Positions 10,766-55,236 of a stretch of DNA of 64,000 bases are shown one piece after another (the stretch's first letter is position 1; each line of letters begins with the position of its first letter). The DNA is from an uncultured virus (IMG/VR IMGVR_UViG_3300024270_000041) (Duplodnaviria; Heunggongvirae; Uroviricota; Caudoviricetes). The notes below the pieces were generated by a model. The model saw only the letters and a list, made by a program, of their open reading frames with translations, did not search any database and was not told where the DNA came from. Made by a program: the position numbers and the translations under genes. The stretch lies in the IMG/VR virus record IMGVR_UViG_3300024270_000041. The stretch is one strand, 5' to 3'.

Positions 10766-12945
10766 ATGGCAAAGAAATCAATGGATAATATTGAGGTTAA
10801 GATGGGAGACCCAACGTGGGTAATTCCAGCTATCAATAATCTCACTACATATTCGACCGACGAACTTGTTGACCCAGAGGGCAAGTTCTCCAAGTATGCT
10901 ATTCAGACATACGGTAAACTTGGTTACTTCACTGGTACAGAATCCGATGATGATTACGAACTTAAAGGCGTAATTGATTGTAAAGACCCGATTCTCAGTG
11001 AAGAAATTCAGGCTCTTCGTCGTAAGATTTATGATATGAATCCAAAGGGTAGGAGATATGGTACTGATATTATATCAGCACATGTATATACCCGTGACTT
11101 TGATAATGACTGTAGAGAGGATATGCTTACTGGTAAAGGTTTTAGGATATCCAATCACGAGTCGTTCGATAAGAAGAATCAAAAGATACCAGACGGTCTT
11201 CAGAGCCCAGAATTCGGTAGTGACTTCGGCGACGACCTTGAATTTGCAGAAAGATATAGATGTGTATGTGGACTCAAGATGGGTCAGATGTATGAACATG
11301 AAATCTGCCCAGAGTGTAATACAGAAGTTCAGTACTGTGAGGTAGACCTTGAGAAGACTGGATGGATTTTCATCGAGGGTGGATTTAAAGTAATCACACC
11401 TATATATTACGCGAAGCTCGAAGCACTCCTCGGTAAGTATGATAGCCAGGACTCAGTTATCGGAGCAATCATCCGCTGTAACTATAAAGATGCAAAGACA
11501 AATGAGGAACTTGATGAAGCTGGTCTTACAGATAGAGACCGAGAGATGATTGTTAAGCATCCATTTATCCGTAAAGGTATGGCATGGTTTGAACAGCACA
11601 TTCTCGAAGTTCTCGATTTCTATAGGAGAGCTAAGCCCGGTAAGGCTAAATGGTTCGAAGAAATCATTGATAATATAGACAAAGTATTCTGCTCGAGAAT
11701 ACCAGTATATACATCAGTTCTCCGTATGGAAGCTCCTGGTGCAAAGGATGAGAAGGTATTTAGAACCAAAACTAATACCTGCTATCGTTCAATCATCAGG
11801 TCCGCAAACATGATTAATGATTTGGTATCTCGTCACTATGTAAAGAATGCTGACGATAATGCACACTTTACAACCACTTATGATATCAGTGAAATGACAT
11901 CAATTGACAGATTCAGCGCTCAGATTCAGAAGGACCTCAAGGACCTCTTCGAAGAAGAGTTCACAATTCTGTCAGGAAAAGAAGGATATATTCTTGGTAA
12001 GGTAGTATCTGGTAGATACAACTTCTCCGCAAGAAACATCATCATCTCTGGTGGTGCCGACCTTCACTCAGACGAAATCATGGTTTGCTATTCCACATTC
12101 ATTGAGCTCTTTAGATATGAGCTCACAGCATACTATGCTAAATATAATAACTGTACAATATCAGAGGCCAATGATGCAATCCTGAAAGCACAGTCACGAT
12201 TCGATAAGCAGGTATATTACACCATGCTCTATATGGTTAATACGAATGATATCCATGTAATAGTTAACAGAAATCCGTTAGCATATAGCGGCTCCCAGTC
12301 GTGAGGCTGGTGAGAAAACTCTACTTTATACGGGGAAATGCTAGCCACCTCTTTTGAGGTTCCGTGCTACATTTACAAGCGTTAGCATAATCCGTAGCCA
12401 GGTCTCAGTTTACTGAGACAAGGTTCAACGACTATCGAAAGGGTAATCCGATACTTACATCGGGTGAGTAACCGAGTAGAGTAGGGCCAAGTGGTAGGTT
12501 TCTAGATGATATTAGTCTAGAGTGATTCCTTTAAACCGAAATGATGAGCATCTCATAAGAGTTTATGAGTTGGTGATATAGTCTACGCAACATGGTAACA
12601 TGTTGAACCCAGTACTGGGTTGATGGTAATTAACGACTACCATTTACTTGCACGGCAATTAACTATGGATCATTCCTTGCACTTCGTATCGTTCATGTTA
12701 AATCTGATATTGGAGATAGAACTCTCACCGTTAATAAGCGTATCCTCATCGTTATGGGTGCAGACTTCGACGGTGACCAGGAGAATATATTCAGAGTATT
12801 TGGCGACTCACTTAACGCAACTATTGCGAGACAGATGAACCCGAGATATACGCTCTTTATCGACAAAAAGAATAATCAACTCAATCGAGCGTTGATGCCT
12901 ACGAAGGATGAAGCTATCGGCTTCTATACCTTCAATAATATCTAA
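10766..12945 (+). CDS. RNA polymerase beta'-like subunit, N-terminal part with catalytic motif; spliced join(10766..12278,12656..12945), about 600 aa
   Basis: Zn finger RCVCG...ICPEC and GRYNFSARNII (conserved region C). Splicing gives VNRNPSINYGS...MGADFDGDQ. Confidence 0.92.
12279..12655 (+). mobile_element. Group I self-splicing intron, 377 nt, no homing endonuclease ORF
   Basis: P1: exon CCGU pairs with intron GCGG (12288-12291) with a U.G at the splice site. P-like CGGGGAA, Q-like AATCCGTAGC, R TTCAACGACTA (12424-12434), S GATATAGTCT (12575-12584), P9 hairpin with GTAA loop, terminal G12655. Removal restores the frame. Confidence 0.93.
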
Positions 12946-14380: not shown

Positions 14381-15664
14381 TTGAAAGCAATAGATAGTAT
14401 TAACTTCCGAATGTGTAAGTATAAAATGGACCGTATCCAGTTAACGGTACCAGGGTTATCTAAACCATATCAGGTTAATACTCTGGCTATAGGTGACCTC
14501 GTAATAGAAAAGGACTTTGATAATTACCAGTACCCATACTTTCGTGTAACTATAGGTGTACCTAATAAGGTGCGACGCCTCATGCGTAAGAGTCATACTC
14601 AAATAACTGCGTATGTTCGTATGGTATATGCATACTTCAAGACCCAGGATACGATAGGCTTACCGGATATGCATACGCAGGAGTATATATATCTATCCGA
14701 GAATTTCTATGTGTTTATGGAAGACCATAGCCCAGATGTAACTATGGACGTTGAAGAGCAGATTGAAAAGGAAACTCTTCCAGACGGTATCGTTACTGGT
14801 TTTGATAATCTTACCACTATAGAGATATTACTTTACAAGAAGGCCGACCTTAATCTGGTCAAGCAGACACCGACTAAGGTGTATCGTAATGTTACCCTTC
14901 TCGATAGTCTCGTAGATTATATGAATACCGTTGGTATGACCAAGGTATTGATGACACCCCCGAATAATAACCTGAAAAGATATAAACAGTTTCCATACCC
15001 ACCCATTAGAGTCGACGAGCAGATTCTCAGAGTATGTGGGGATTATGGTATTCATAAATGCGGTACAACTTTATTTTTCGACTTTGATAAGACCTATCTT
15101 ATCGAGAAGGTTAATAAATGCACTGCATGGGTACCCAATGAATATAAGACAATCTATGTAATTGAACCGACTGCCGCGGCACATGTGTCCACCGTAATTC
15201 AGGGATGTAGTTATGAATCTGATCATTGTGGATATTGTACGATGACAAGTGCTACATCATCCGCAGATTCGATGGAACGTGAACAGGTGTTCGGTTCACG
15301 AATGGATGTTATTGATAAGAAGACAGGTAATTACGTCGATGTGTCGGCAAACACTACAACTATTTCCGGTGGTGGTGGAAAATCACGTACTATTACCTCA
15401 TATGACGGTGATGCGTCTACCGCATATGCTATACGACAGCGAATGATTGAAGAATCAAATATTCTCACTGCTGTACTCGATGGTACAGACCTTACAATGC
15501 TTGCACCAAACAAGTTATACCAGTTAGTATTCTTATCATCCAATCTTTCTAAACATAATGGAGCATATAGGCTGAAGAAATTCACATGTGCGTTCCATGA
15601 GAATGATAGAGAATGGTTTACCCCTACAGTACTTGCTACATTTGTAGGAGACAAAATAAAATGA
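14381..15664 (+). CDS. Probable baseplate hub-like structural protein
   Basis: 427-aa beta-rich ORF (TTG start, AGGAG RBS). The C-terminal L.P...Y..........G.Y.L.....F pattern is reminiscent of gp27/VgrG hubs. Inferred. Confidence 0.4.
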   Translation: MKAIDSINFRMCKYKMDRIQLTVPGLSKPYQVNTLAIGDLVIEKDFDNYQYPYFRVTIGVPNKVRRLMRKSHTQITAYVRMVYAYFKTQDTIGLPDMHTQEYIYLSENFYVFMEDHSPDVTMDVEEQIEKETLPDGIVTGFDNLTTIEILLYKKADLNLVKQTPTKVYRNVTLLDSLVDYMNTVGMTKVLMTPPNNNLKRYKQFPYPPIRVDEQILRVCGDYGIHKCGTTLFFDFDKTYLIEKVNKCTAWVPNEYKTIYVIEPTAAAHVSTVIQGCSYESDHCGYCTMTSATSSADSMEREQVFGSRMDVIDKKTGNYVDVSANTTTISGGGGKSRTITSYDGDASTAYAIRQRMIEESNILTAVLDGTDLTMLAPNKLYQLVFLSSNLSKHNGAYRLKKFTCAFHENDREWFTPTVLATFVGDKIK

Positions 15665-15668
15665 CGGT

Positions 15669-15704
15669 AAATACCCCAGTACCATAAATGGTACTGGGGT
15701 ATTT
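15669..15704. terminator. Bidirectional intrinsic terminator
   Basis: Perfect 17-bp inverted repeat AAATACCCCAGTACCAT-aa-ATGGTACTGGGGTATTT between convergent units. Confidence 0.85.
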
Positions 15705-16231
15705 TATGTAAAACTATAGAAAGGTTGCATGTCTAATGCAAGCATATGTACTCAATAACAATGACCGGCAAGGGGTAGCTCTCACATTAACAATATGAAA
15801 TCATGGAGTGATTTTTAATGAAATTGCTTTATGAATACCTGAGCGCGGAAATGTATGTAACGTTCACGCTACTCTCAATACACGGGCAACTGTTCGCAAC
15901 ATCGTCCGCCGTATATATCAACGAGGTCTCGGCACAATCCGTTACAAGTGGCTTACGCAACATTAAGTAGATTAAGCTGTATTCATTAGTCGATGAAATC
16001 ATGAGCAAGAAAATATCGACGGATGTCTTTGCGAAACTTGAACACGCTTTGGCCGGAAGAATCCGCCATTTGAACTTTTTATCACGTTAACAGGTCCTCG
16101 CCACGTTAGTGGTGTTATCTCCGGGCATTTTATCGGTATAAGATATCGGGTATCTTCGAAACTACCCGGCCTTTGTCATTGTGTATCATAATAGGACGCA
16201 TTCCGCCTATAGTGAATGGCAAGTCGTCCTA
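15669..16231 (-). ncRNA. Candidate large (about 560 nt) multi-domain structured ncRNA
   Basis: About 590 bp without a long ORF; late-type promoter GACA-N6-TA at 16241-16230; several nested long-range helices; ends in a terminator. Confidence 0.65.
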
Positions 16232-16257
16232 CATATATGTCATATGGTGTATAGATT

Positions 16258-19128
16258 TTAAATGAAGAGTTTATCATTCTCAACCTGCTTGAGACGAATA
16301 CGAGATGAGTGGAATTTCTTCATACCTGCATTAACGAATGTATTAGGAACTGTAGCGAAGTTGATACCTACATTCATGAGGTCCATTTCATATGGTCTGG
16401 AGCCAATACATGCTGAGCATATCTTCTCACCAATACAGCACATTGGTGAACGTACTTTGATTGGTTTATTGATAAACTGCTTATAGTTCTCGTCGGTGAC
16501 AGTAACTAATTTACCCTCACCTACGATGACATTCTGACCTTCAAGGTCACGCCAATTATCCTCGGTGTATGTCAATGTTAAGTAACCCTTAGTATGACAA
16601 TCTGAACCCTCTTCGTCTACTACGGTAGCGCCGAACAGAGCATAGAACTGCTTTGTTACATAACCAGCATCGGCTGTACCTACGGACTTAGGATATGAAG
16701 CAGATACCACCATGTTACCAGCTTTTGCAATTTCGTCCTTTCTAAAGCCTTCTACATAGCTCGACTTAATAACGTCAAACTGACCTGTACCAGCATTATA
16801 AATAGGACCAATCATAGTATTGATATTCTTAAGCTGGTCATCGACTTTAGCCTTAGCACCAGATGCGAACAAAGTTCTTGATGTATCGGCATCAATTTTC
16901 TTCTTAAGCATATCTACAAGCTCATCCTCAAGAGCAGCCACTTCATCCAATGTCGGATTCGGGTTTTCTTTGAAGAATTGCTCCTTACGGGCAATAATCT
17001 TCTTGTCTGGAATAATTGTAGCCTCTGTCATAGACGATGCGAAAATAGTAGTTGTCTTATATGCATAGAACTGAATAGCCTTAAGGAATGGCCATACTTT
17101 ATCCGTGGTAATTCTATCATACTTAATAGCTGTAGCTACAAGGGCAAAAAGTTTCTCATACCCCTTCTTATCAATAGGGATATTCCAGTATCCATCTGGG
17201 ATAATCTCAACGATATATGGCTCAATGATAATCTTATTGAATGTAAGAATACCCAGGGTTGTTTCAACCGGTTTCTTATTGGTATACTGATTAGCAGCAA
17301 GAGTTACTGTATCATAATGAATATATTTGGAATTCTTAATCTTCTTGGTTTCAAGGTCGGTAGTCGTAGCAAACCATTCAGTTAACTTCTTCATACCAAT
17401 ATTCTTGTAGTTGGTATTCAATATCTCAGCAACAGCATGGGCTGGTGCAGGCTTACCCTTAGGGTTAAACTGCATCATAGAGTAAAGACCAAGTACACCC
17501 TCGTTACCCAGGGTCTTAATAAGTTTACCCTGACAGTCGATATAGTGCTTCTTAGACATGATAATATTCATTGTCTCGTCGTTAGCTTCCTTAGAGAACA
17601 TAGCACGATGAGATGTTTGGTCGCCATCATAGTCACCGCCGATAGCTTCGAGGAACGAGTTATCCATATTAAGAGTATCGTTGAACGCTACTGCCACCTG
17701 CTCCGGTGGTGCATCAGGTTCTACTACTGGGTAATATGGAAACTCTTTCTCAATACCCTGAATTCGAAGCTTTATTGGTGTAGTTTTGATGGTTGATAAT
17801 ACATGAATCATTGATGGGAAGATACCAAAGTATGAGATAAGTGGATATCTAGTAACCCACGTGGTCTTATCTGACGAGACCTCGACCGCTGCGATATATA
17901 GTAAATCAGTCCAAGTGAAATCACGATCAGCGATAGGTGCCATACCATCAGCATTCGGATTCTTCGGATCAAAAGGTCTTCCTGCAAACTTCAGTGGAAT
18001 AATCTTCTGACCACTCGGAGTCTTGATTCGTACAGTCACGGGTTCAAATCTTGTCTCATAGTTATCAATGAACTTATCAATTCGCTTCTTGATAAGATCT
18101 GCAGTATAATCCTGCATTGGGTCATCAAGCTCATATGATTCAACATTACCGCCTTTAAGTGCCAAATTAAGTCGGTTACCCGATACTTCAAACTGCTCAG
18201 AAAGGTAATTGGCTACCCAACGAGCAATGAATGGGAATAATGTAACACAAAGCTCAGCAAGTGGAATACCTGTATGATTAACGTCAATAGGCACTTCATC
18301 CGGAGTATCATACTGGTCAAGTACCATACATGAGATAACTGAACGGTGACCATAGTCCGGAGCTTTACCTACAACGTACTTATTGAAGAAACCATCGGAT
18401 TTCTCAATGATACTTCTGAAGTATTTATGGAGTTCCAGAGTCTTAAGCTGAATGCGATACTTCGCAGCATGACCCATGAATAAGAATGTCTTATCATTCA
18501 ATGACTTTGCAAGACGAATGATATCGATATACATATTATTGACCTGTGGAATCTTAGCAGGTCCATCGCCGGTTCTTTCCACATCTCTGTAGAATACCGG
18601 CTGTACTACGAACTTATTGATGAATATTTCATTCGGTTCAAATGACTCAATCATATCGATACGTTCGTTACGCTCTCTGGATTTATTACGCTTCCATTTA
18701 ATCTTTGAGTAGTTCTTGATAAACCAATCCAATCCACAGTTAGCTGGATTAGCCTTCGGGTCATCATCTTTAAGTTTAATGAGGTCACCATTTTCAGTAA
18801 CCTCCCAACACCCTTCGCCGGCGATACACTTCGATATATTCTGCTGAAGTTTAGTAAGGATTTCATAAACGAATGGATGTATGATAGTTGTATTGAGATC
18901 GATATAAGCATACTGGCGCTTACGTTCATCGACTGTCTTACCGAATATCTCTTCGGAGAATAATCCATCCACTGTAGGGATACCTTCTCTCTCAAAGGAT
19001 ACTGGATTGGTAACAGGCTTCATTCCGAGATACTTAATAGACAGGTCAATTACTTCTTGCGTCTGGATGTCTACCTTTAATGGGACATCCGGTCCGACGG
19101 TGCGGACATCTGGCATTTCGTTAGCCAT
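16258..19128 (-). CDS. Second RNA polymerase beta'-like subunit (about 956 aa)
   Basis: Motifs DGLFSEEIFG, TRYPL, GGDYDGDQ, VGTADAGYVTK (bridge helix), RSPMCC...ICSAC and AGMKKFH (trigger-loop-like). Start MANEMPD follows AAAGGAGG. Confidence 0.93.
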   Translation of the reverse strand: MANEMPDVRTVGPDVPLKVDIQTQEVIDLSIKYLGMKPVTNPVSFEREGIPTVDGLFSEEIFGKTVDERKRQYAYIDLNTTIIHPFVYEILTKLQQNISKCIAGEGCWEVTENGDLIKLKDDDPKANPANCGLDWFIKNYSKIKWKRNKSRERNERIDMIESFEPNEIFINKFVVQPVFYRDVERTGDGPAKIPQVNNMYIDIIRLAKSLNDKTFLFMGHAAKYRIQLKTLELHKYFRSIIEKSDGFFNKYVVGKAPDYGHRSVISCMVLDQYDTPDEVPIDVNHTGIPLAELCVTLFPFIARWVANYLSEQFEVSGNRLNLALKGGNVESYELDDPMQDYTADLIKKRIDKFIDNYETRFEPVTVRIKTPSGQKIIPLKFAGRPFDPKNPNADGMAPIADRDFTWTDLLYIAAVEVSSDKTTWVTRYPLISYFGIFPSMIHVLSTIKTTPIKLRIQGIEKEFPYYPVVEPDAPPEQVAVAFNDTLNMDNSFLEAIGGDYDGDQTSHRAMFSKEANDETMNIIMSKKHYIDCQGKLIKTLGNEGVLGLYSMMQFNPKGKPAPAHAVAEILNTNYKNIGMKKLTEWFATTTDLETKKIKNSKYIHYDTVTLAANQYTNKKPVETTLGILTFNKIIIEPYIVEIIPDGYWNIPIDKKGYEKLFALVATAIKYDRITTDKVWPFLKAIQFYAYKTTTIFASSMTEATIIPDKKIIARKEQFFKENPNPTLDEVAALEDELVDMLKKKIDADTSRTLFASGAKAKVDDQLKNINTMIGPIYNAGTGQFDVIKSSYVEGFRKDEIAKAGNMVVSASYPKSVGTADAGYVTKQFYALFGATVVDEEGSDCHTKGYLTLTYTEDNWRDLEGQNVIVGEGKLVTVTDENYKQFINKPIKVRSPMCCIGEKICSACIGSRPYEMDLMNVGINFATVPNTFVNAGMKKFHSSRIRLKQVENDKLFI

Positions 19129-19262
19129 TATATTTAACCTCCTTTGTGAAGTCAATTATATAGAGGTTTTCGAATCGGGTCTTCTAAAAGCAAAAAAATC
19201 AACACCGCCTAAGTAACTAGAACCGCCAGGTACGTACCTGGCGGTGTTGATGTTAGTATGGC

Positions 19263-19767: not shown

Positions 19768-19824
19768 TGCATAGAAATACCCCCATTACCTATTATAGGT
19801 AATGGGGGTATTTAATATTCATAT

Positions 19825-32433: not shown

Positions 32434-33840
32434 TTAACCCTCGTAGCCCGGAGGACATTTCACATATACGCCATATGTCTTAGGGGCAATCTTCTTATCG
32501 AGAACCGCTCTACGCAGTTTCTGCAGAGATTCCTTGGTAGACTTAATCTTAGCATCGTACTTGTGATAGTCACCATTCTGTCTACAAGAGTCTTCGAAGT
32601 AGTTAAGCTGGTCTATCTTATGATAGATAAGGTCGAGCACATATGCTCTATCATAATGGTTTTCGATTTTGTCAATCTCAATCCATATATCGTCGATTGC
32701 GTAATCGGATGGAAGCACAGCTCTCTTTTTCTTCTTCAAGAAAGCTTCAAGTGCAACTTCATCACTTGTACCATATGCTTCAGCAGAAGCAATCTCGATA
32801 GCAGCTGTTCTTGGATTAGAACCTGTGAATGTGTAAGACTCCATTGCTGCCTGGAGGGTATACTCACCCTTATCGATATTATCGATTACACTTTCCATAG
32901 CAATGAGCTTATTAGTATAGCGGTCCTTAAGACCATAACCACACTGAGCACAGATGTTGAGGATAGCGAATCTCATAGAGTAGCTTGTAGCACGTGCTGC
33001 TCTGTTAATAAGTTCAGCCTGGAGCTGTCCTCTTCTTCTCATAATATCCTTGATATTGATATTGCACCAGTTGACGTCCACGTGTACTTCATGACGACGA
33101 ACGTCACTATTTCTAAGCACCGTAGTGCCGTATCTGGCAATGATCTTATTGATTGCATTGTAATATATCTCCCTGTTAATCTGTGGTGTAGGAATCTCCT
33201 CACCACAGCCATTTTCGGAAGTGTAATTACAATTGGTTGCTACTGTTGGTGCAGTCGGATTAGCAAGCTCTGAATTGAGTGCAACGTATGCCTGAATACC
33301 AGTCATAGCAGTGATGAGTGGAATAGTATAGAAGATGCTGACAAGTCTAGCAACATTGGCAGTATGAATCATTGTCAGATACGAGTTAGTTGTCATAAAC
33401 TCATCAAATACTACATGTAGTGGTATGCCATCCATAGTGTAATTGATCTGTGCTTTGATAAGCTCCCATATTTCATCTGGGGTAAAGTTGATAACAGTAT
33501 TATCAAGCATATTCTTATCGATCTCGATGATGATACGACAAATCTTTCCCCACTCAGGGAATATCTTGCCGAAGTTTCTATCAGCGAACTTACGGAGAAT
33601 TGGAGTCATCTCGGATAATTCTGGATATACACTGATACCAGAGAAGCCGTTCTTCGGGTCGATGATTTTGATAGTCACATTATATTTTTTGCTATCATCC
33701 TTAGTTGAAGACATCAGGTCCATATACTGAGCGATATGAAATCCGAGATCGGAGTTAACCGCACATTCATCCAGGTTAGATATAGCATTCTTGATTCTTT
33801 CAATTACGCCTGCCATAGAAGCAGAATCCATAGTTATCAT
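32434..33840 (-). CDS. Late virion (head) protein with AME/ALE sites
   Basis: Late promoter at 33878-33867. IAMES, AAMES and VALEA precede a basic C-terminal domain. Confidence 0.55.
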   Translation of the reverse strand: MITMDSASMAGVIERIKNAISNLDECAVNSDLGFHIAQYMDLMSSTKDDSKKYNVTIKIIDPKNGFSGISVYPELSEMTPILRKFADRNFGKIFPEWGKICRIIIEIDKNMLDNTVINFTPDEIWELIKAQINYTMDGIPLHVVFDEFMTTNSYLTMIHTANVARLVSIFYTIPLITAMTGIQAYVALNSELANPTAPTVATNCNYTSENGCGEEIPTPQINREIYYNAINKIIARYGTTVLRNSDVRRHEVHVDVNWCNINIKDIMRRRGQLQAELINRAARATSYSMRFAILNICAQCGYGLKDRYTNKLIAMESVIDNIDKGEYTLQAAMESYTFTGSNPRTAAIEIASAEAYGTSDEVALEAFLKKKKRAVLPSDYAIDDIWIEIDKIENHYDRAYVLDLIYHKIDQLNYFEDSCRQNGDYHKYDAKIKSTKESLQKLRRAVLDKKIAPKTYGVYVKCPPGYEG

Positions 33841-42591: not shown

Positions 42592-44751
42592 TTACAGCAG
42601 TTTCGTAGTATGAACGCTGATAGGATTTTCAATTTTACTATTGACTGTGAGGGTCGGTAAACTGAGTCCTGTGAACCTCTCGAGTCCCTGCATGAATCCT
42701 GTCATCTGTGCTTCAGCATCCTCAATTCTGAGAGACTTCTGAATTTCCTTGTTAATCTTCTTATCATATCTCTTATTGATAGAGAGAAGCTGATTGGAAG
42801 AAAGGAGCATTGTGATGATACTTGTAGTTGCTCTGAGGATTTCACTATCAGTAGCAACGGAGTTGATAACTCCAGTACCAGCAGGTTCGAATTCTTCGGT
42901 GACGATATTGTAACCAAGATTCTTAGTTACCGCATACTCAAATATAGCACACATGTCATATTTGAGCTCACGGAGTGCTGCATTTTTTTCATGGTCACAG
43001 AGACATCTGAAGAACGGATGCATGTGATTCTTAATTTCATTTCTTGATTCATCATCGATACCGTCCCATGTATATACTGTTGGGAGACATGGGTCATCTG
43101 CAAACTTATTGAGCATTACATCGATAGATGTAAGCATGAATGCCTCTGCAATGTATCTGAGGATAGTATGGTTGATATAATCATCCGGTGTAGAATCCTC
43201 ATTAGCTTCGATTGCTGTAACAAGGTCAAATATAACGGACATAGTTTCGAGATTGAAGCCTCTGATATAACCGTTCTCATATGCCGAACGACATGCGAGT
43301 GTCGCGTCGAGCACAGCGTCTCTTGTGCATCTCTTCTTGAGTTCGGAGTCTCCACCAACGAAGATTACGCCGGTATCACCGACGAACTTAACGAGTCTGA
43401 GGTGTGCCTCCATATAATCCTTCTCAAGTGTCTCTGCATGATGGAATACCTTTTCCTTAGCAGAGTTGAAGTCTTCCTTGAGTGCCGCAAGAGCCGCCTG
43501 ATATGCAACTGTATCCTTTGAGTAATCTTCAAGAAGCAGATACTTTTCAGTAATAGTAAGTCTTGGGGCTCTACCGGCAGAACCTTCAATAATCGCGGAT
43601 GGTTTCTGGCATTCCTGTGATGGGAACATCATATGGAATTCATCGGAGTCTCCGTAATAATGCTCGTAGTTTTCGACCGTTTCATCAGATGCGTTCGTCT
43701 TAAGGAAGTTAAACATACGCACCTTTGTATAGTTAACGATTTCAGAGCCAGTGAGAATAGCGAAGTCAGCAGCATAATCCTTGAGTGCCTTACTTGTAAG
43801 TGAAAGCTGGAAGAGCATTACTGAAAGTTCACCGGCATTTACAACCTTCTCAGCAGCACCCTTAATAGCAGAACCGAGAGCAGAAAGAATCTGGTCATCA
43901 TAACTTGGTGCAAAGATGATAGCCTGAGAATGTTCGCTGTTAGCCAGGTTGACGATATCATTGATAATGCTGTAGTGTTCGTTATACTTCACCATGTGGT
44001 CGAAGATGAAGACACGTGGATTACGAGTATTTACGAACTCCTTATCGCCTCTGAGATAGAGAGGTGCCCAGAGCAGGTGACAGTCGAGTTTGTAACCTCT
44101 GTTAATTGTGTATGTAGTCTCATCAGTATCGGAGAGTGTAACGTGAATGTTAGGGTTATGAGTCTTCTCATAAATCTCTCTGATAGTTTCGGATATCTTC
44201 TCGTTACCATTGGAGGAGATATATGCGATATTATAGATATCTTCGAACTTACAGTCGTCGCCGGTATCTTCGATGATATGCTTATGGGTGTCCTTGTTGA
44301 GCTCGGTAATGATTAAGTCCTTCATAGACTCAATCTTTTCAATAAGCTCAGCCTGTCTGATACGTGAGTTGATTTGGCGTATCTCTGCCATCATCTGGTC
44401 GAAGAGCTGGATGAAGTGGTTTGCAACGACAAGAGCAGTTGTCGTACCGTCTCCAACTCTTGAGTTGAGAGTGAAGCTAATACGCTTGATATAGTTATAA
44501 AGTACTGAGTGTACAGGATCACCGAGTAACAGGTGGTCCAGAACTGTCCAACCGTCCTTAGTAGAGAATGCATTGACTCCATCATCAAGTACCGTGGTAC
44601 TGGCATATGGACCAAGTGTTCTGGTAACTACTTCGGCAGCAGTTTCGCAGATTGCACGCAGAATTGCTTTATATTCTGCAGATTCGATGAGATTAAGACT
44701 TGCACGAATTTCGTTCTTAAGCTCCTCATGTTTTGTCATTTGATTCATCAT
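42592..44751 (-). CDS. groEL: GroEL-like phage chaperonin
   Basis: Motifs RTLGP, TKDGWTV, VGDGTTTA, ISSNG, IFVGGDSELKK and DAVLDATLACRSA. Start follows AAAGGAG. Confidence 0.92.
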   Translation of the reverse strand: MMNQMTKHEELKNEIRASLNLIESAEYKAILRAICETAAEVVTRTLGPYASTTVLDDGVNAFSTKDGWTVLDHLLLGDPVHSVLYNYIKRISFTLNSRVGDGTTTALVVANHFIQLFDQMMAEIRQINSRIRQAELIEKIESMKDLIITELNKDTHKHIIEDTGDDCKFEDIYNIAYISSNGNEKISETIREIYEKTHNPNIHVTLSDTDETTYTINRGYKLDCHLLWAPLYLRGDKEFVNTRNPRVFIFDHMVKYNEHYSIINDIVNLANSEHSQAIIFAPSYDDQILSALGSAIKGAAEKVVNAGELSVMLFQLSLTSKALKDYAADFAILTGSEIVNYTKVRMFNFLKTNASDETVENYEHYYGDSDEFHMMFPSQECQKPSAIIEGSAGRAPRLTITEKYLLLEDYSKDTVAYQAALAALKEDFNSAKEKVFHHAETLEKDYMEAHLRLVKFVGDTGVIFVGGDSELKKRCTRDAVLDATLACRSAYENGYIRGFNLETMSVIFDLVTAIEANEDSTPDDYINHTILRYIAEAFMLTSIDVMLNKFADDPCLPTVYTWDGIDDESRNEIKNHMHPFFRCLCDHEKNAALRELKYDMCAIFEYAVTKNLGYNIVTEEFEPAGTGVINSVATDSEILRATTSIITMLLSSNQLLSINKRYDKKINKEIQKSLRIEDAEAQMTGFMQGLERFTGLSLPTLTVNSKIENPISVHTTKLL

Positions 44752-45556
44752 TCGGTTTCTCTCCTTTAAAGTATACTGTAGATTTGTCACCCTTGTAGTC
44801 AGTGACATATTTTAACTGAAACCAGTTAGCTTCGCATTTGAAGCGTTGCTTGGTTTCGGATAAGAATTTCTGATGCTTATAGAAACTCTTATCCATAGCA
44901 TCAGCGTCGACTCGAATATTCGGCAATGCTGATATCAGGAAGAGTTTCTTATAGAATTTATCAGTCCCCTCAGGTTCCGATTCAATAACCTCGAGCACCT
45001 CATCGGCCGAGTCACATATGATAGTGGTAATCTCAGGTTTAGCTGTTATGATATCAAGTAACGAGCCTTCCAGTAAGGATATGCGTGGGCCATTTGCTCT
45101 ACCAAATGAGTCTCTTAAGAACTTCTTAGTGATATCAGAGAATGCTGTATCGTAGATATAAATCTTCTTACAGAAGTCATATGTTAGGAACTCATGTAAC
45201 ATTATCTCAACATTTGTAACTGATGCAAAGTATGGATTAGATAGTGCCATTAGCTTTGCGTAATCCTGAGACGCGTTGCTAAATCCAAGTTTATTAAAGT
45301 GCTTGAATGATAAAGCCATGAACTTTAGAAACTCGGCACTTGTAAACGGTGAGAGTAAGTTAAATCTCTCCTCGGCAGACTTGTCGAGTAAGTTGGCAAA
45401 CTTTGTGTAGTTTTCGAGCCAGTACGACTTGAAGTCCGGTAACTGTGTTGCTGCATTATAAAGTAGCTCTCCGGCATTCTTCATACCGCCTCGGAATTTA
45501 ACAAGAAATACCTCATCCCTTGTTTTGGTTACAGGTCTTAAGAAGTCAAATTCCAT
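44726..45556 (-). CDS. Hypothetical protein
   Basis: 276-aa ORF with AAGGAG RBS, overlapping the chaperonin start. Confidence 0.75.
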   Translation of the reverse strand: MEFDFLRPVTKTRDEVFLVKFRGGMKNAGELLYNAATQLPDFKSYWLENYTKFANLLDKSAEERFNLLSPFTSAEFLKFMALSFKHFNKLGFSNASQDYAKLMALSNPYFASVTNVEIMLHEFLTYDFCKKIYIYDTAFSDITKKFLRDSFGRANGPRISLLEGSLLDIITAKPEITTIICDSADEVLEVIESEPEGTDKFYKKLFLISALPNIRVDADAMDKSFYKHQKFLSETKQRFKCEANWFQLKYVTDYKGDKSTVYFKGEKPNDESNDKT

Positions 45557-55151: not shown

Positions 55152-55236
55152 ATTAGTAGAAATATAAGAGATATCGCTAAGTTATAGGGCACTTAGCGAC
55201 GTATAAAAATAGCCCTTCATAGTAGGAGGTAATACT

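What the first reader, a model, noticed from the sequence alone, without database searches (positions are those of the whole stretch)
15669..16231. Candidate large ornate ncRNA (about 560 nt) directly downstream of the RNAP beta' gene
Seen: the largest gap without a long ORF in a densely coding window. It starts at a GACA-N6-TA promoter with a 5' hairpin (16192-16231). Nested long-range helices follow: 16175-16182/15758-15765 (8 bp); 16160-16167/15773-15780 (a G.U only on the minus strand, fixing orientation); 15979-15986/15831-15838 (8 bp); 15940-15946/15856-15862 (7 bp); plus local hairpin 15989-16020. It ends in a terminator. No tmRNA, RNase P or intron signatures are visible. Inference: a ROOL/GOLLD-class large RNA or a new class, expressed late.
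Basis: partly seen in the sequence, partly recalled or inferred. Interest (0 to 1): 0.8.

Follow-up and report, generated by a model that had tools for sequence, protein, structure and literature searches.

The report
Uncatalogued folded RNA, gut jumbo phage
A gene-free stretch next to the RNA-polymerase gene of an uncultured giant gut phage most likely encodes a folded non-coding RNA of about 450-500 bases that related phages conserve, that fits no catalogued RNA family, and whose job is still unknown.

Summary
The 593-nt gap (15665-16257) between a virion RNA polymerase beta' gene and a convergent baseplate-hub gene of an AR9-like jumbo phage most likely holds a real minus-strand ncRNA. The support is comparative: in a related strain the gap changes about four times more slowly than third codon positions; out-of-frame indels exclude a protein; substitutions keep predicted pairs on the minus strand (13 of 17) but not the plus (3 of 18); RNA-library contigs of two studies lie on 15740-16181; and a shorter 339-nt relative keeps three blocks (both arms of a ~30-bp closing rod and an unpaired central block). 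No clean two-sided covariation was seen; strand, ends and level are not measured. No Rfam, ARAGORN or database match; not ROOL, GOLLD, OLE, tmRNA or an intron by the tests run. Best reading: a late, stable, protein-binding scaffold or decoy RNA of a new family with conserved core and variable periphery. A CCA-like end in the short relative keeps a tmRNA-derived origin open (about 12%).

The parts
16258..19155 (-). Virion RNA polymerase beta' subunit, N and C parts fused (probable start ATG 19128 behind a ribosome site)
   Evidence: PHROG 2986 + 2962; tblastn to AR9 g145 and g264, both annotated 'virion RNAP subunit'
16230..16241 (-). Candidate late (non-virion RNAP) promoter GACA-N6-TA, +1 at about 16230
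   Evidence: One mismatch from AR9 AACA-(6N)-TA/G (PMC5312081, passages); AACA-N6-TA is enriched before ribosome sites in this genome, 16 of 44 against 4 of 40 and 3 of 51 for N5/N7; GACA 4 of 38. Inferred
16191..16232 (-). 5' hairpin (possible leader; no RNA-library contig was seen on it)
   Evidence: Pairing probability 0.97; one listed substitution (16201) at an unpaired site
16159..16190 (-). 5' arm of the ~30-bp interrupted closing rod; part of conserved block A (16133-16181)
   Evidence: P 0.84-0.96; no listed change over 16128-16200 in the relatives covering it; 47 of 49 letters kept in the 339-nt relative
16140..16156 (-). 6-bp hairpin inside block A
   Evidence: P 0.88; within the invariant block
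16117..16139 (-). 5' arm of a second long-range helix, pairing with 15835-15852
   Evidence: P 0.86-0.96 for its main stems; 16119 G.U to A-U, 16125 and 15843 G-C to G.U in relatives; indels at 15844-46 and 16127 shift its register
16050..16068 (-). Optional peripheral hairpin
   Evidence: Removed by a 16-nt deletion in 2 of the 3 relatives covering it (X10, X15); predicted P about 0.7
15989..16020 (-).
   Evidence: P 0.94; two changes to G.U, one loop change, end pair broken in 2 relatives
15917..15955 (-). Conserved block B, largely unpaired in the model: candidate tertiary core or binding site
   Evidence: 35 of 39 letters kept in the 339-nt relative; no listed change 15915-15945; mostly dots in the MEA model
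15857..15916 (-). Two peripheral hairpins (15878-15916; 15857-15872)
   Evidence: P 0.85 and 0.95; 15881 G.U to A-U and 15914 A-U to G.U keep adjacent pairs
15740..15784 (-). Conserved block C: 3' arm of the closing rod (15745-15781)
   Evidence: 42 of 45 letters kept in the 339-nt relative; rod duplex -31.8 kcal/mol, rank 53 of 4326 in an unbiased grid scan
15725..15741 (-). 3' hairpin; replaced in the short relative by 10 other letters that read either as a smaller hairpin or as a CCA end
   Evidence: P 0.88; loose end of X23 record 11 (table 7)
15669..15704 (.). Probably bidirectional intrinsic terminator shared with the convergent gene
   Evidence: 17-bp perfect inverted repeat; relative X10 carries matched C and G insertions in the two arms (table 4)
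14381..15664 (+). Baseplate hub protein gene (T4 gp27/VgrG fold), convergent neighbour
   Evidence: AlphaFold model pLDDT 71; best Foldseek match phiKZ baseplate 9xph_A, E 3e-15, TM 0.63

Best explanation
The gap encodes a stand-alone non-coding RNA on the minus strand, of a family not yet catalogued and so far seen only in one clade of animal-gut AR9-like jumbo phages. Shown or strongly indicated: it is under purifying selection, not as protein, and tolerates changes as a minus-strand fold would. Inferred: it is started late by the phage's non-virion RNA polymerase at about 16230 (or released from the beta' transcript), ends at the shared terminator, and accumulates as a stable core of about 430-460 nt whose ends are locked in a ~30-bp rod. 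The rod, the first hairpin and an unpaired 39-nt central block form a sequence-conserved core; the hairpins between them are dispensable and vary in length. Mechanism committed to (inferred, untested): it works as a binding RNA, not as a message or enzyme: the conserved rod/loop and block B are recognised by a protein partner or by other copies of the RNA, so that during late infection it serves as a scaffold or decoy, the role proposed for ROOL, GOLLD and OLE. About 0.8 that it is a real selected ncRNA; about 0.6 of that for the scaffold/decoy role.
For: Selection: relative X15 differs at 23 of 593 gap positions (3.9%) and 60 of 1175 coding positions; 8 of 8 displayed coding changes are third positions, which puts third positions near 15% (Fisher p 6e-10). 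Non-coding: indels of 1, 2 and 16 nt differ between strains; the 27 listed substitutions show no codon phase (6/10/11); both ATGs of the longest internal minus frame (16002, 15961) are changed in all 4 relatives. Strand and fold: at sites predicted paired (P>=0.5) 13 of 17 changes keep the pair on minus, 3 of 18 on plus (Fisher p 0.0006); against a base-matched null, pair-breaking is low on minus (4.3 against 6.7, p 0.04) and at chance on plus (p 0.50); all 3 G-to-A changes fall on G.U pairs, which hold 16 of 110 G; a whole hairpin is deleted in 2 relatives. RNA libraries: contigs from 2 of 2 metatranscriptome studies laid lie on the gap (X23: 15753-16181; X21: 15763-16018), and X23 holds a second, 339-nt contig that keeps blocks A, B, C in order (47/49, 35/39, 42/45) with 100 and 96 letters between instead of 177 and 132. 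Late promoters of AR9 type are used in this genome.
Against: No clean two-sided compensatory change on the minus strand among 27 substitutions; the keep-mass test alone is not significant (p 0.11); folding energy without the terminator is within the range of coding stretches. The relatives are 93-96% identical and not independent, and only 40 of 125 substitution rows were displayed. Contigs give no strand, end or level, RNA libraries can hold DNA, and the runs were picked for holding this stretch. The letters between the blocks of the short relative were not shown, and its source organism is unknown. Promoter is a one-mismatch variant. No partner protein was found: Pfam named no RNA-binding or RNA-processing family among 136 proteins scanned from about 157 kb of a roughly 240-kb genome. 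No experiment bears on function.
Confidence: 0.5

Rival explanations
1. A strongly diverged tmRNA-like or tRNA-mimic RNA: the closing rod is helix P2, the RNA ends in an alanine-type acceptor, and it acts on ribosomes or tRNA-recognising enzymes of the host.
For: The 339-nt relative runs from block C into CCACCA followed by 4 letters, which reads as U70-C71-C72-A73-CCA (signature recalled, not from a call; letters, table 7); with a missing 5' part its length would be near 360 nt. In the window a short frame (15887-15864, ARVLRVA-stop) ends in the loop of hairpin 15857-15872, and block B holds GCCGAG and CTCG as in the first tmRNA pseudoknot (recalled).
Against: The same 10 letters also form a small hairpin where the window has a hairpin. 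The window has no CCA, no canonical T arm and no 5' acceptor strand; ARAGORN finds nothing at 100, 90 or 80% and the 70% hit is noise (187 tmRNA calls in the genome); RF00023 gives 0 matches at E<=10 while ringing in 14 of 14 controls; the tag-like frame lies 270 nt after the rod rather than just after it; only 2 nt separate the two halves of the would-be pseudoknot stem.
Confidence: 0.12
2. An RNA-polymerase-binding RNA (working like 6S, Ms1 or CoRP) that holds the virion RNAP inactive until packaging, or sequesters host RNAP late in infection.
For: It lies directly behind the virion RNAP beta' gene with a late-type promoter; CoRP is 516 nt and binds RNAP core (PMC11077062, passages); beta' and the hub gene appear to be neighbours across the clade (matching contig lengths).
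Against: Adjacency is the only link. No such gap follows the beta' C-terminal gene in AR9, PALS_2, phiR1-37, JD-Fnp4 or G003-G006 (8 of 9 examined; the ninth, LPJP1, has an unrelated gap with a group II intron-like motif). The fold is a multi-branched domain, not a rod with a central bubble.
Confidence: 0.1
3. A structured 3' untranslated region or processing product of the beta' mRNA that sets its stability or insulates it from the convergent late unit, with no independent function.
For: No terminator-like U-run follows the beta' stop; the terminator at 15669-15704 can end a read-through transcript; the long rod resembles an RNase III substrate (inference).
Against: 450 nt of selected sequence with a conserved core and variable periphery is far more than a stability element needs; distant relatives end the same gene with a plain terminator or the next gene; a promoter-like motif precedes the element.
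Confidence: 0.13
4. A DNA-level element (origin or packaging site) or a decayed intron or mobile element; any transcription is incidental and the fold is chance.
For: Weak folding z and chance-level helix counts; introns are common in RNAP genes of this group; DNA elements are also conserved and non-coding.
Against: Strand-specific tolerance of G.U pairs is expected for RNA, not for duplex DNA; GC is not low and no iterons are present; group I and II models do not match although the same scan found a group I intron 3 kb away; a decaying relic would not change four times more slowly than third positions.
Confidence: 0.12
5. A remote member of ROOL, GOLLD or OLE missed by the models.
For: Size range, phage location and animal-gut source resemble ROOL (PMC5737381 and PMC12286853, passages).
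Against: No match at E<=10 in an all-family scan of the 901-nt region or single-family scans of the genome (the ROOL and OLE scans had no positive control ringing); no tRNA genes in the 157 kb held.
Confidence: 0.03

Closest known systems
ROOL RNA (RF03087) and GOLLD RNA (RF02032)
   Same: Large structured ncRNA of unknown function in a phage; ROOL averages 581 nt and was first found in rumen data; conserved core with variable linker regions (PMC5737381, PMC12286853, passages).
   Different: No covariance-model match; shorter (about 340-500 nt); not near tRNA genes in the part of the genome held; lytic AR9-like jumbo phage with its own late promoter; pseudoknots and self-assembly not shown.
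OLE RNA (RF01071)
   Same: Roughly similar size, long terminal helix, protein-scaffold role as a model for function.
   Different: No model match; OLE is a chromosomal RNA with OapA/B/C partners (named in the references seen); neighbours here are RNAP beta' and a baseplate hub.
tmRNA (RF00023)
   Same: Long interrupted helix closing a large looped domain; CCA-like end and about 340-360 nt in the short relative.
   Different: No tRNA-like domain, no CCA and no correctly placed pseudoknot or tag frame in the window; ARAGORN and Rfam negative.
RNAP-binding RNAs 6S, Ms1, CoRP (PMC11077062, passages)
   Same: Structured stand-alone RNA; CoRP is 516 nt; genomic tie to an RNAP gene here.
   Different: No sequence or model match; binding untested; those are cellular genes.
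Jumbo-phage ncRNAs found by RNA-seq: phiR1-37 misc_4 (297 nt, PMC4848604 Table 1) and 201phi2-1 sRNA001-011 (<250 nt, PMC11512511)
   Same: Intergenic ncRNAs of phiKZ/AR9-like phages; misc_4 also lies beside a virion-protein RNAP gene (g099).
   Different: misc_4 is an AT-rich array of long hairpins upstream of a beta gene with no similarity to this RNA; the 201phi2-1 RNAs are much shorter.

Membership tests
ROOL (RF03087) | Covariance-model match at or near the gathering score | tested here: not met
   0 matches at E<=10 (no control genome rang, so that scan alone is weak)
ROOL (RF03087) | [quoted passage not shown] | tested here: inconclusive
   Single-sequence model has three to four junctions; pseudoknot candidates are only 5-7 bp and unsupported; no diverged alignment
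ROOL (RF03087) | Often near tRNA genes in phages and prophages | tested here: not met
   0 tRNA genes in the window, G000 and the extra 49 kb of G001; genome incomplete
ROOL / GOLLD | RNA-only homo-oligomeric nanocage | not testable with these tools
   Needs cryo-EM or mass photometry
GOLLD (RF02032) | Conserved 3' domain matching the model; often >800 nt | tested here: not met
   (0 matches at E<=10); gap is 593 nt
OLE (RF01071) | Model match | tested here: not met
   (no control rang in 114)
tmRNA (RF00023) | Model or ARAGORN match | tested here: not met
   (controls ring in 14 of 14)
tmRNA (RF00023) | tRNA-like domain: acceptor stem with G3.U70, T arm, 3' CCA | tested here: inconclusive
   Absent in the window by inspection; CCA-like end in the 339-nt relative whose 5' end and interior were not shown
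tmRNA (RF00023) | Tag reading frame directly after pseudoknot 1 | tested here: not met
   Tag-like frame 15887-15864 lies about 270 nt after the rod and was called only at a noise-level threshold
RNase P RNA, type B (RF00011) | Model match with P4 pseudoknot motifs | tested here: not met
   (controls ring in 11 of 14)
Group I / group II intron | Catalytic core match and position inside an interrupted gene | tested here: not met
   No match in the gap; the same scan found a group I intron at 12269-12605; both flanking genes are full length against homologues
6S / Ms1 / CoRP | Rfam match or ~180-nt rod with central bubble (6S) | tested here: not met
6S / Ms1 / CoRP | Binding to RNA polymerase | not testable with these tools
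   Needs pull-down or RIP-seq
AR9-type late transcription unit | AACA-(6N)-TA/G promoter | tested here: inconclusive
   GACA-N6-TA, one mismatch; consensus enriched in this genome, GACA variant only weakly

The most novel reading that the evidence does not exclude
A new class of large structured RNA encoded by RNAP-bearing jumbo phages that is a working part of the phage's own expression machinery: either it binds the virion RNA polymerase and travels in the virion, or it is a phage-remodelled, CCA-ended tRNA/tmRNA mimic that redirects host translation; family members range from about 340 to 500 nt around one conserved core.
Probability: 0.2. Interest if true: 0.85.

Novelty: new variant of a known kind. 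Interest (0 to 1): 0.57.

Why it matters
Large structured bacterial and phage RNAs are rare and have repeatedly turned out to be unusual (ribozymes, RNA-only nanocages). A family with a sharply conserved core and dispensable periphery, natural short and long forms, and a setting inside a phage that runs its own transcription gives a tractable object: the short form defines the minimal core for probing or cryo-EM, and the fixed position between beta' and the hub gene makes homologue collection from existing gut assemblies straightforward. Its narrow known range and the lack of a cultured host limit immediate impact.

Tried and rejected
Homologue searches that found only identical copies or chance hits: blastn against INPHARED phages and PLSDB plasmids (0 matches; a 61-nt query gave only 18-nt chance hits before genes of Miami-like phages); IMG/VR by protein and by five DNA patterns (all non-identical hits rejected); JGI metagenomes by protein (7 distant loci, none with the RNA); GTDB contigs by protein (0 of 108 candidates) and pattern (1 hit, in coding DNA); five distant phage records G002-G006 by blastn (G002-G005), pattern, nhmmer and local alignment of 89 gaps. 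The closer relatives (52-96% protein identity) exist only in ENA/Logan, whose DNA could be seen only through one lay of four runs, so no alignment, covariance model or R-scape-type test was possible. Not used as evidence: the two RNA runs show no contig on the flanking genes apart from one 36-nt piece with loose ends (5 and 8 of 30 bins covered, against 30 and 26 for the DNA runs); the runs were selected on this stretch and no silent control stretch was laid. The hand-picked rod score (1 of 5414 windows as low) was biased by my choice of ends; the unbiased scan gives top 1.2%. A helix seen by eye (16017-16035 with 15893-15911) is broken by the 16021 change in 3 of 3 relatives covering it and was dropped. 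A plus-strand 50-codon ORF behind GGAG (15818-15970) is frameshifted in 4 of 4 relatives. phiR1-37 misc_4 as positional homologue: rejected. ARAGORN at 70%: noise. Protein atlas for the 129-aa upstream gene: no usable hit. PDB sequence search with beta': 0. Literature: seven full-text searches listed no paper describing this RNA by title or abstract start; motif search of the Fremin 2023 supplements found nothing in 6 files, but files 1, 2 and 4 were not searched and may list it.

Full report
Setting. The window lies in a 108.7-kb virus record (G000, 45% complete); a 156.8-kb record (G001) is identical over the locus, and a protein of this locus occurs on contigs up to 239 kb. Gene content (split and fused RNAP subunits, chaperonin, family B polymerase, major head protein) marks an AR9/phiKZ-like jumbo phage. 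Runs that hold the stretch are labelled faeces, gut and bovine gut metagenomes. The host is unknown; strong GGAGG ribosome sites suggest a Firmicute (inference). The upstream gene matches AR9 g145 and g264, both annotated virion RNAP subunits. The convergent gene folds like the phiKZ baseplate hub.

Checking the observation. The gap is 15665-16257. All named helices and the GACA-N6-TA motif are present. They are not, by themselves, beyond chance: perfect helix counts equal those of shuffles; z falls from about -5 to about -2 once the terminator is removed, is +0.5 for the interior, and does not favour the minus strand; 3 of 16 coding stretches score as well. Two of the four long-range helices are absent from the ensemble. 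The ensemble instead gives a 5' hairpin, a ~30-bp interrupted rod joining 16159-16190 to 15745-15781, a second long-range helix (16117-16139 with 15835-15852) and several peripheral hairpins. The rod ranks 53 of 4326 in an unbiased genome scan: strong, not extreme.

Comparative evidence. Database searches returned only identical copies (see Tried and rejected). Four public runs were laid at 80% likeness: two DNA runs and two metatranscriptomes of different studies, each holding a 93-96% identical relative. The substitution table displayed 40 of 125 rows: all 23 of X23 record 12, 30 of 34 of X15 record 6, 8 of 11 of X21 record 9; changes private to X10 may be missing. (a) Selection: X15 differs at 23 of 593 gap sites (27 if the 4 unlisted letters of that record were all in the gap) and 60 of 1175 coding sites; all 8 displayed coding changes are third positions; if that holds for all, third positions change near 15% against 3.9% in the gap (p 6e-10). 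(b) Not protein: strain-specific indels of 1, 2 and 16 nt, no codon phase, internal ATGs lost. (c) Strand: of 27 substitutions used (the indel-confounded sites 15845/15846 and 16246 left out), those at sites predicted paired keep the pair in 13 of 17 cases on minus and 3 of 18 on plus. Part of that contrast follows from the substitution spectrum itself (15 of 19 transitions are A-to-G or C-to-U on minus, p 0.02); a base-matched permutation still gives less pair-breaking than expected on minus (p 0.04) and chance on plus (p 0.50), while the keep-mass test is not significant (p 0.11). The three G-to-A changes, shared by all relatives that cover them, fall on G.U pairs (16 of 110 G). A 16-nt deletion removes one whole hairpin. 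No clean two-sided change was found. (d) RNA libraries: contigs lie on 15753-16181 (X23) and 15763-16018 (X21). Contigs show presence only, not strand, ends or level, and DNA in the libraries is not excluded. (e) A second X23 contig of 339 nt keeps, in order, 16133-16181 (47 of 49), 15917-15955 (35 of 39) and 15740-15784 (42 of 45), with shorter unlike spacers. It is read as a diverged homologue from another organism, not as a spliced form. It shows that both arms of the rod and a mostly unpaired central block are the conserved core.

What it is not. Rfam has no match in the interior of the gap at E<=10 (the hits are to the terminator) or at gathering level (which did find a group I intron nearby). 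Single-family scans for tmRNA, ROOL, GOLLD, RNase P type B and OLE gave 0 matches (ROOL and OLE lacked a ringing control). No tRNA genes lie in the 157 kb held. No positional equivalent follows the beta' C-terminal gene in 8 of 9 distant phages, and the ninth has an unrelated gap. phiR1-37 misc_4 is unrelated.

How it most likely works. Shown or strongly indicated: selected, non-coding, minus-strand-compatible fold, present in RNA libraries, conserved core with variable periphery. Inferred: late transcription by the non-virion RNAP, since AACA-N6-TA marks late genes in AR9 (PMC5312081) and is enriched before genes here, though this copy reads GACA; trimming to a stable core protected by the terminal rod; recognition of the invariant rod and of block B by a partner. 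Primary-sequence conservation inside a paired rod points to a protein or processing enzyme that reads it, and a conserved unpaired block to a tertiary or intermolecular contact. I therefore commit to a scaffold/decoy RNA, working like ROOL, GOLLD or OLE without belonging to them (0.5). Rivals: structured 3' region of the beta' mRNA (0.13), diverged tmRNA or tRNA mimic (0.12, kept alive by the CCA-like end of the short relative, which can equally be a small hairpin), DNA element or relic (0.12), RNAP-binding RNA (0.10), remote ROOL/GOLLD/OLE (0.03).

Novelty. Seven literature searches listed nothing on this RNA; 3 supplementary files of the largest phage RNA survey (PMC10690425) were not searched and may contain it. 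Earlier notes of this scan report 360-500-nt late RNAs in other jumbo phages (e1-5945567, part of which later fell; e1-5753012; e1-5511468); sequence look-ups found no overlap with this one, I could not compare them, and they are leads, not support. Papers seen: PMC5737381, PMC12286853, PMC5312081, PMC13282480, PMC4848604 (with Table 1), PMC11512511, PMC11077062 as passages; PMC10690425 as search listing plus a motif search of 6 supplementary files. tmRNA, group II intron and RNase III features are recalled, not from calls. Verdict: a probably real, uncatalogued family of large structured phage RNA, a new variant of a known kind; interest 0.57, held down by the lack of two-sided covariation, of measured ends and of any functional evidence.

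Noticed in passing
window 12269-12605 (+): Group I intron (RF00028, 56.8 bits) at the end of the RNAP-subunit ORF 10766-12304 (phrog_2987); no long ORF inside.
   Followed up: no
window about 55170-55236 (+) and G000:C1 about 32920-32990 (-): Two genes share a near-identical ~60-nt leader that looks like an H-type pseudoknot (8-bp stem; loop GGGC able to pair with GCCC just before the ribosome site); seen by eye; no Rfam hit at gathering level in the window copy. Candidate cis-regulatory RNA.
   Followed up: no
window 16258-19155 (-): Virion RNAP beta' is one fused polypeptide, as in Fusobacterium phages JD-Fnp, whereas AR9-like phages split it in two.
   Followed up: partly
G000:C1:26907-27658 (outside the window): 752-nt ORF-poor gap upstream of the 3396-aa gene, with a terminator and further hairpins.
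   Followed up: no
L100:9287-9711 and L012:10942-11523: Intergenic gap of G001 with a G-run/C-run hairpin resembling one in the unannotated gap of an AR9-type record; possible shared origin, end or RNA element (by eye).
   Followed up: no
L189:3575-4439 (Listeria phage LPJP1): Unannotated 865-nt gap after the virion beta' C-terminal gene with a group II intron domain-5-like hairpin (motif recalled; by eye).
   Followed up: no
window 15669-15704, about 19775-19810, and G000:C1 about 27000: A family of long perfect terminator hairpins sharing a TACC...GGTA core.
   Followed up: no
window 42592-44808 (-): Phage chaperonin (GroEL-like, 738 aa, longer than the 540-position profile).
   Followed up: no
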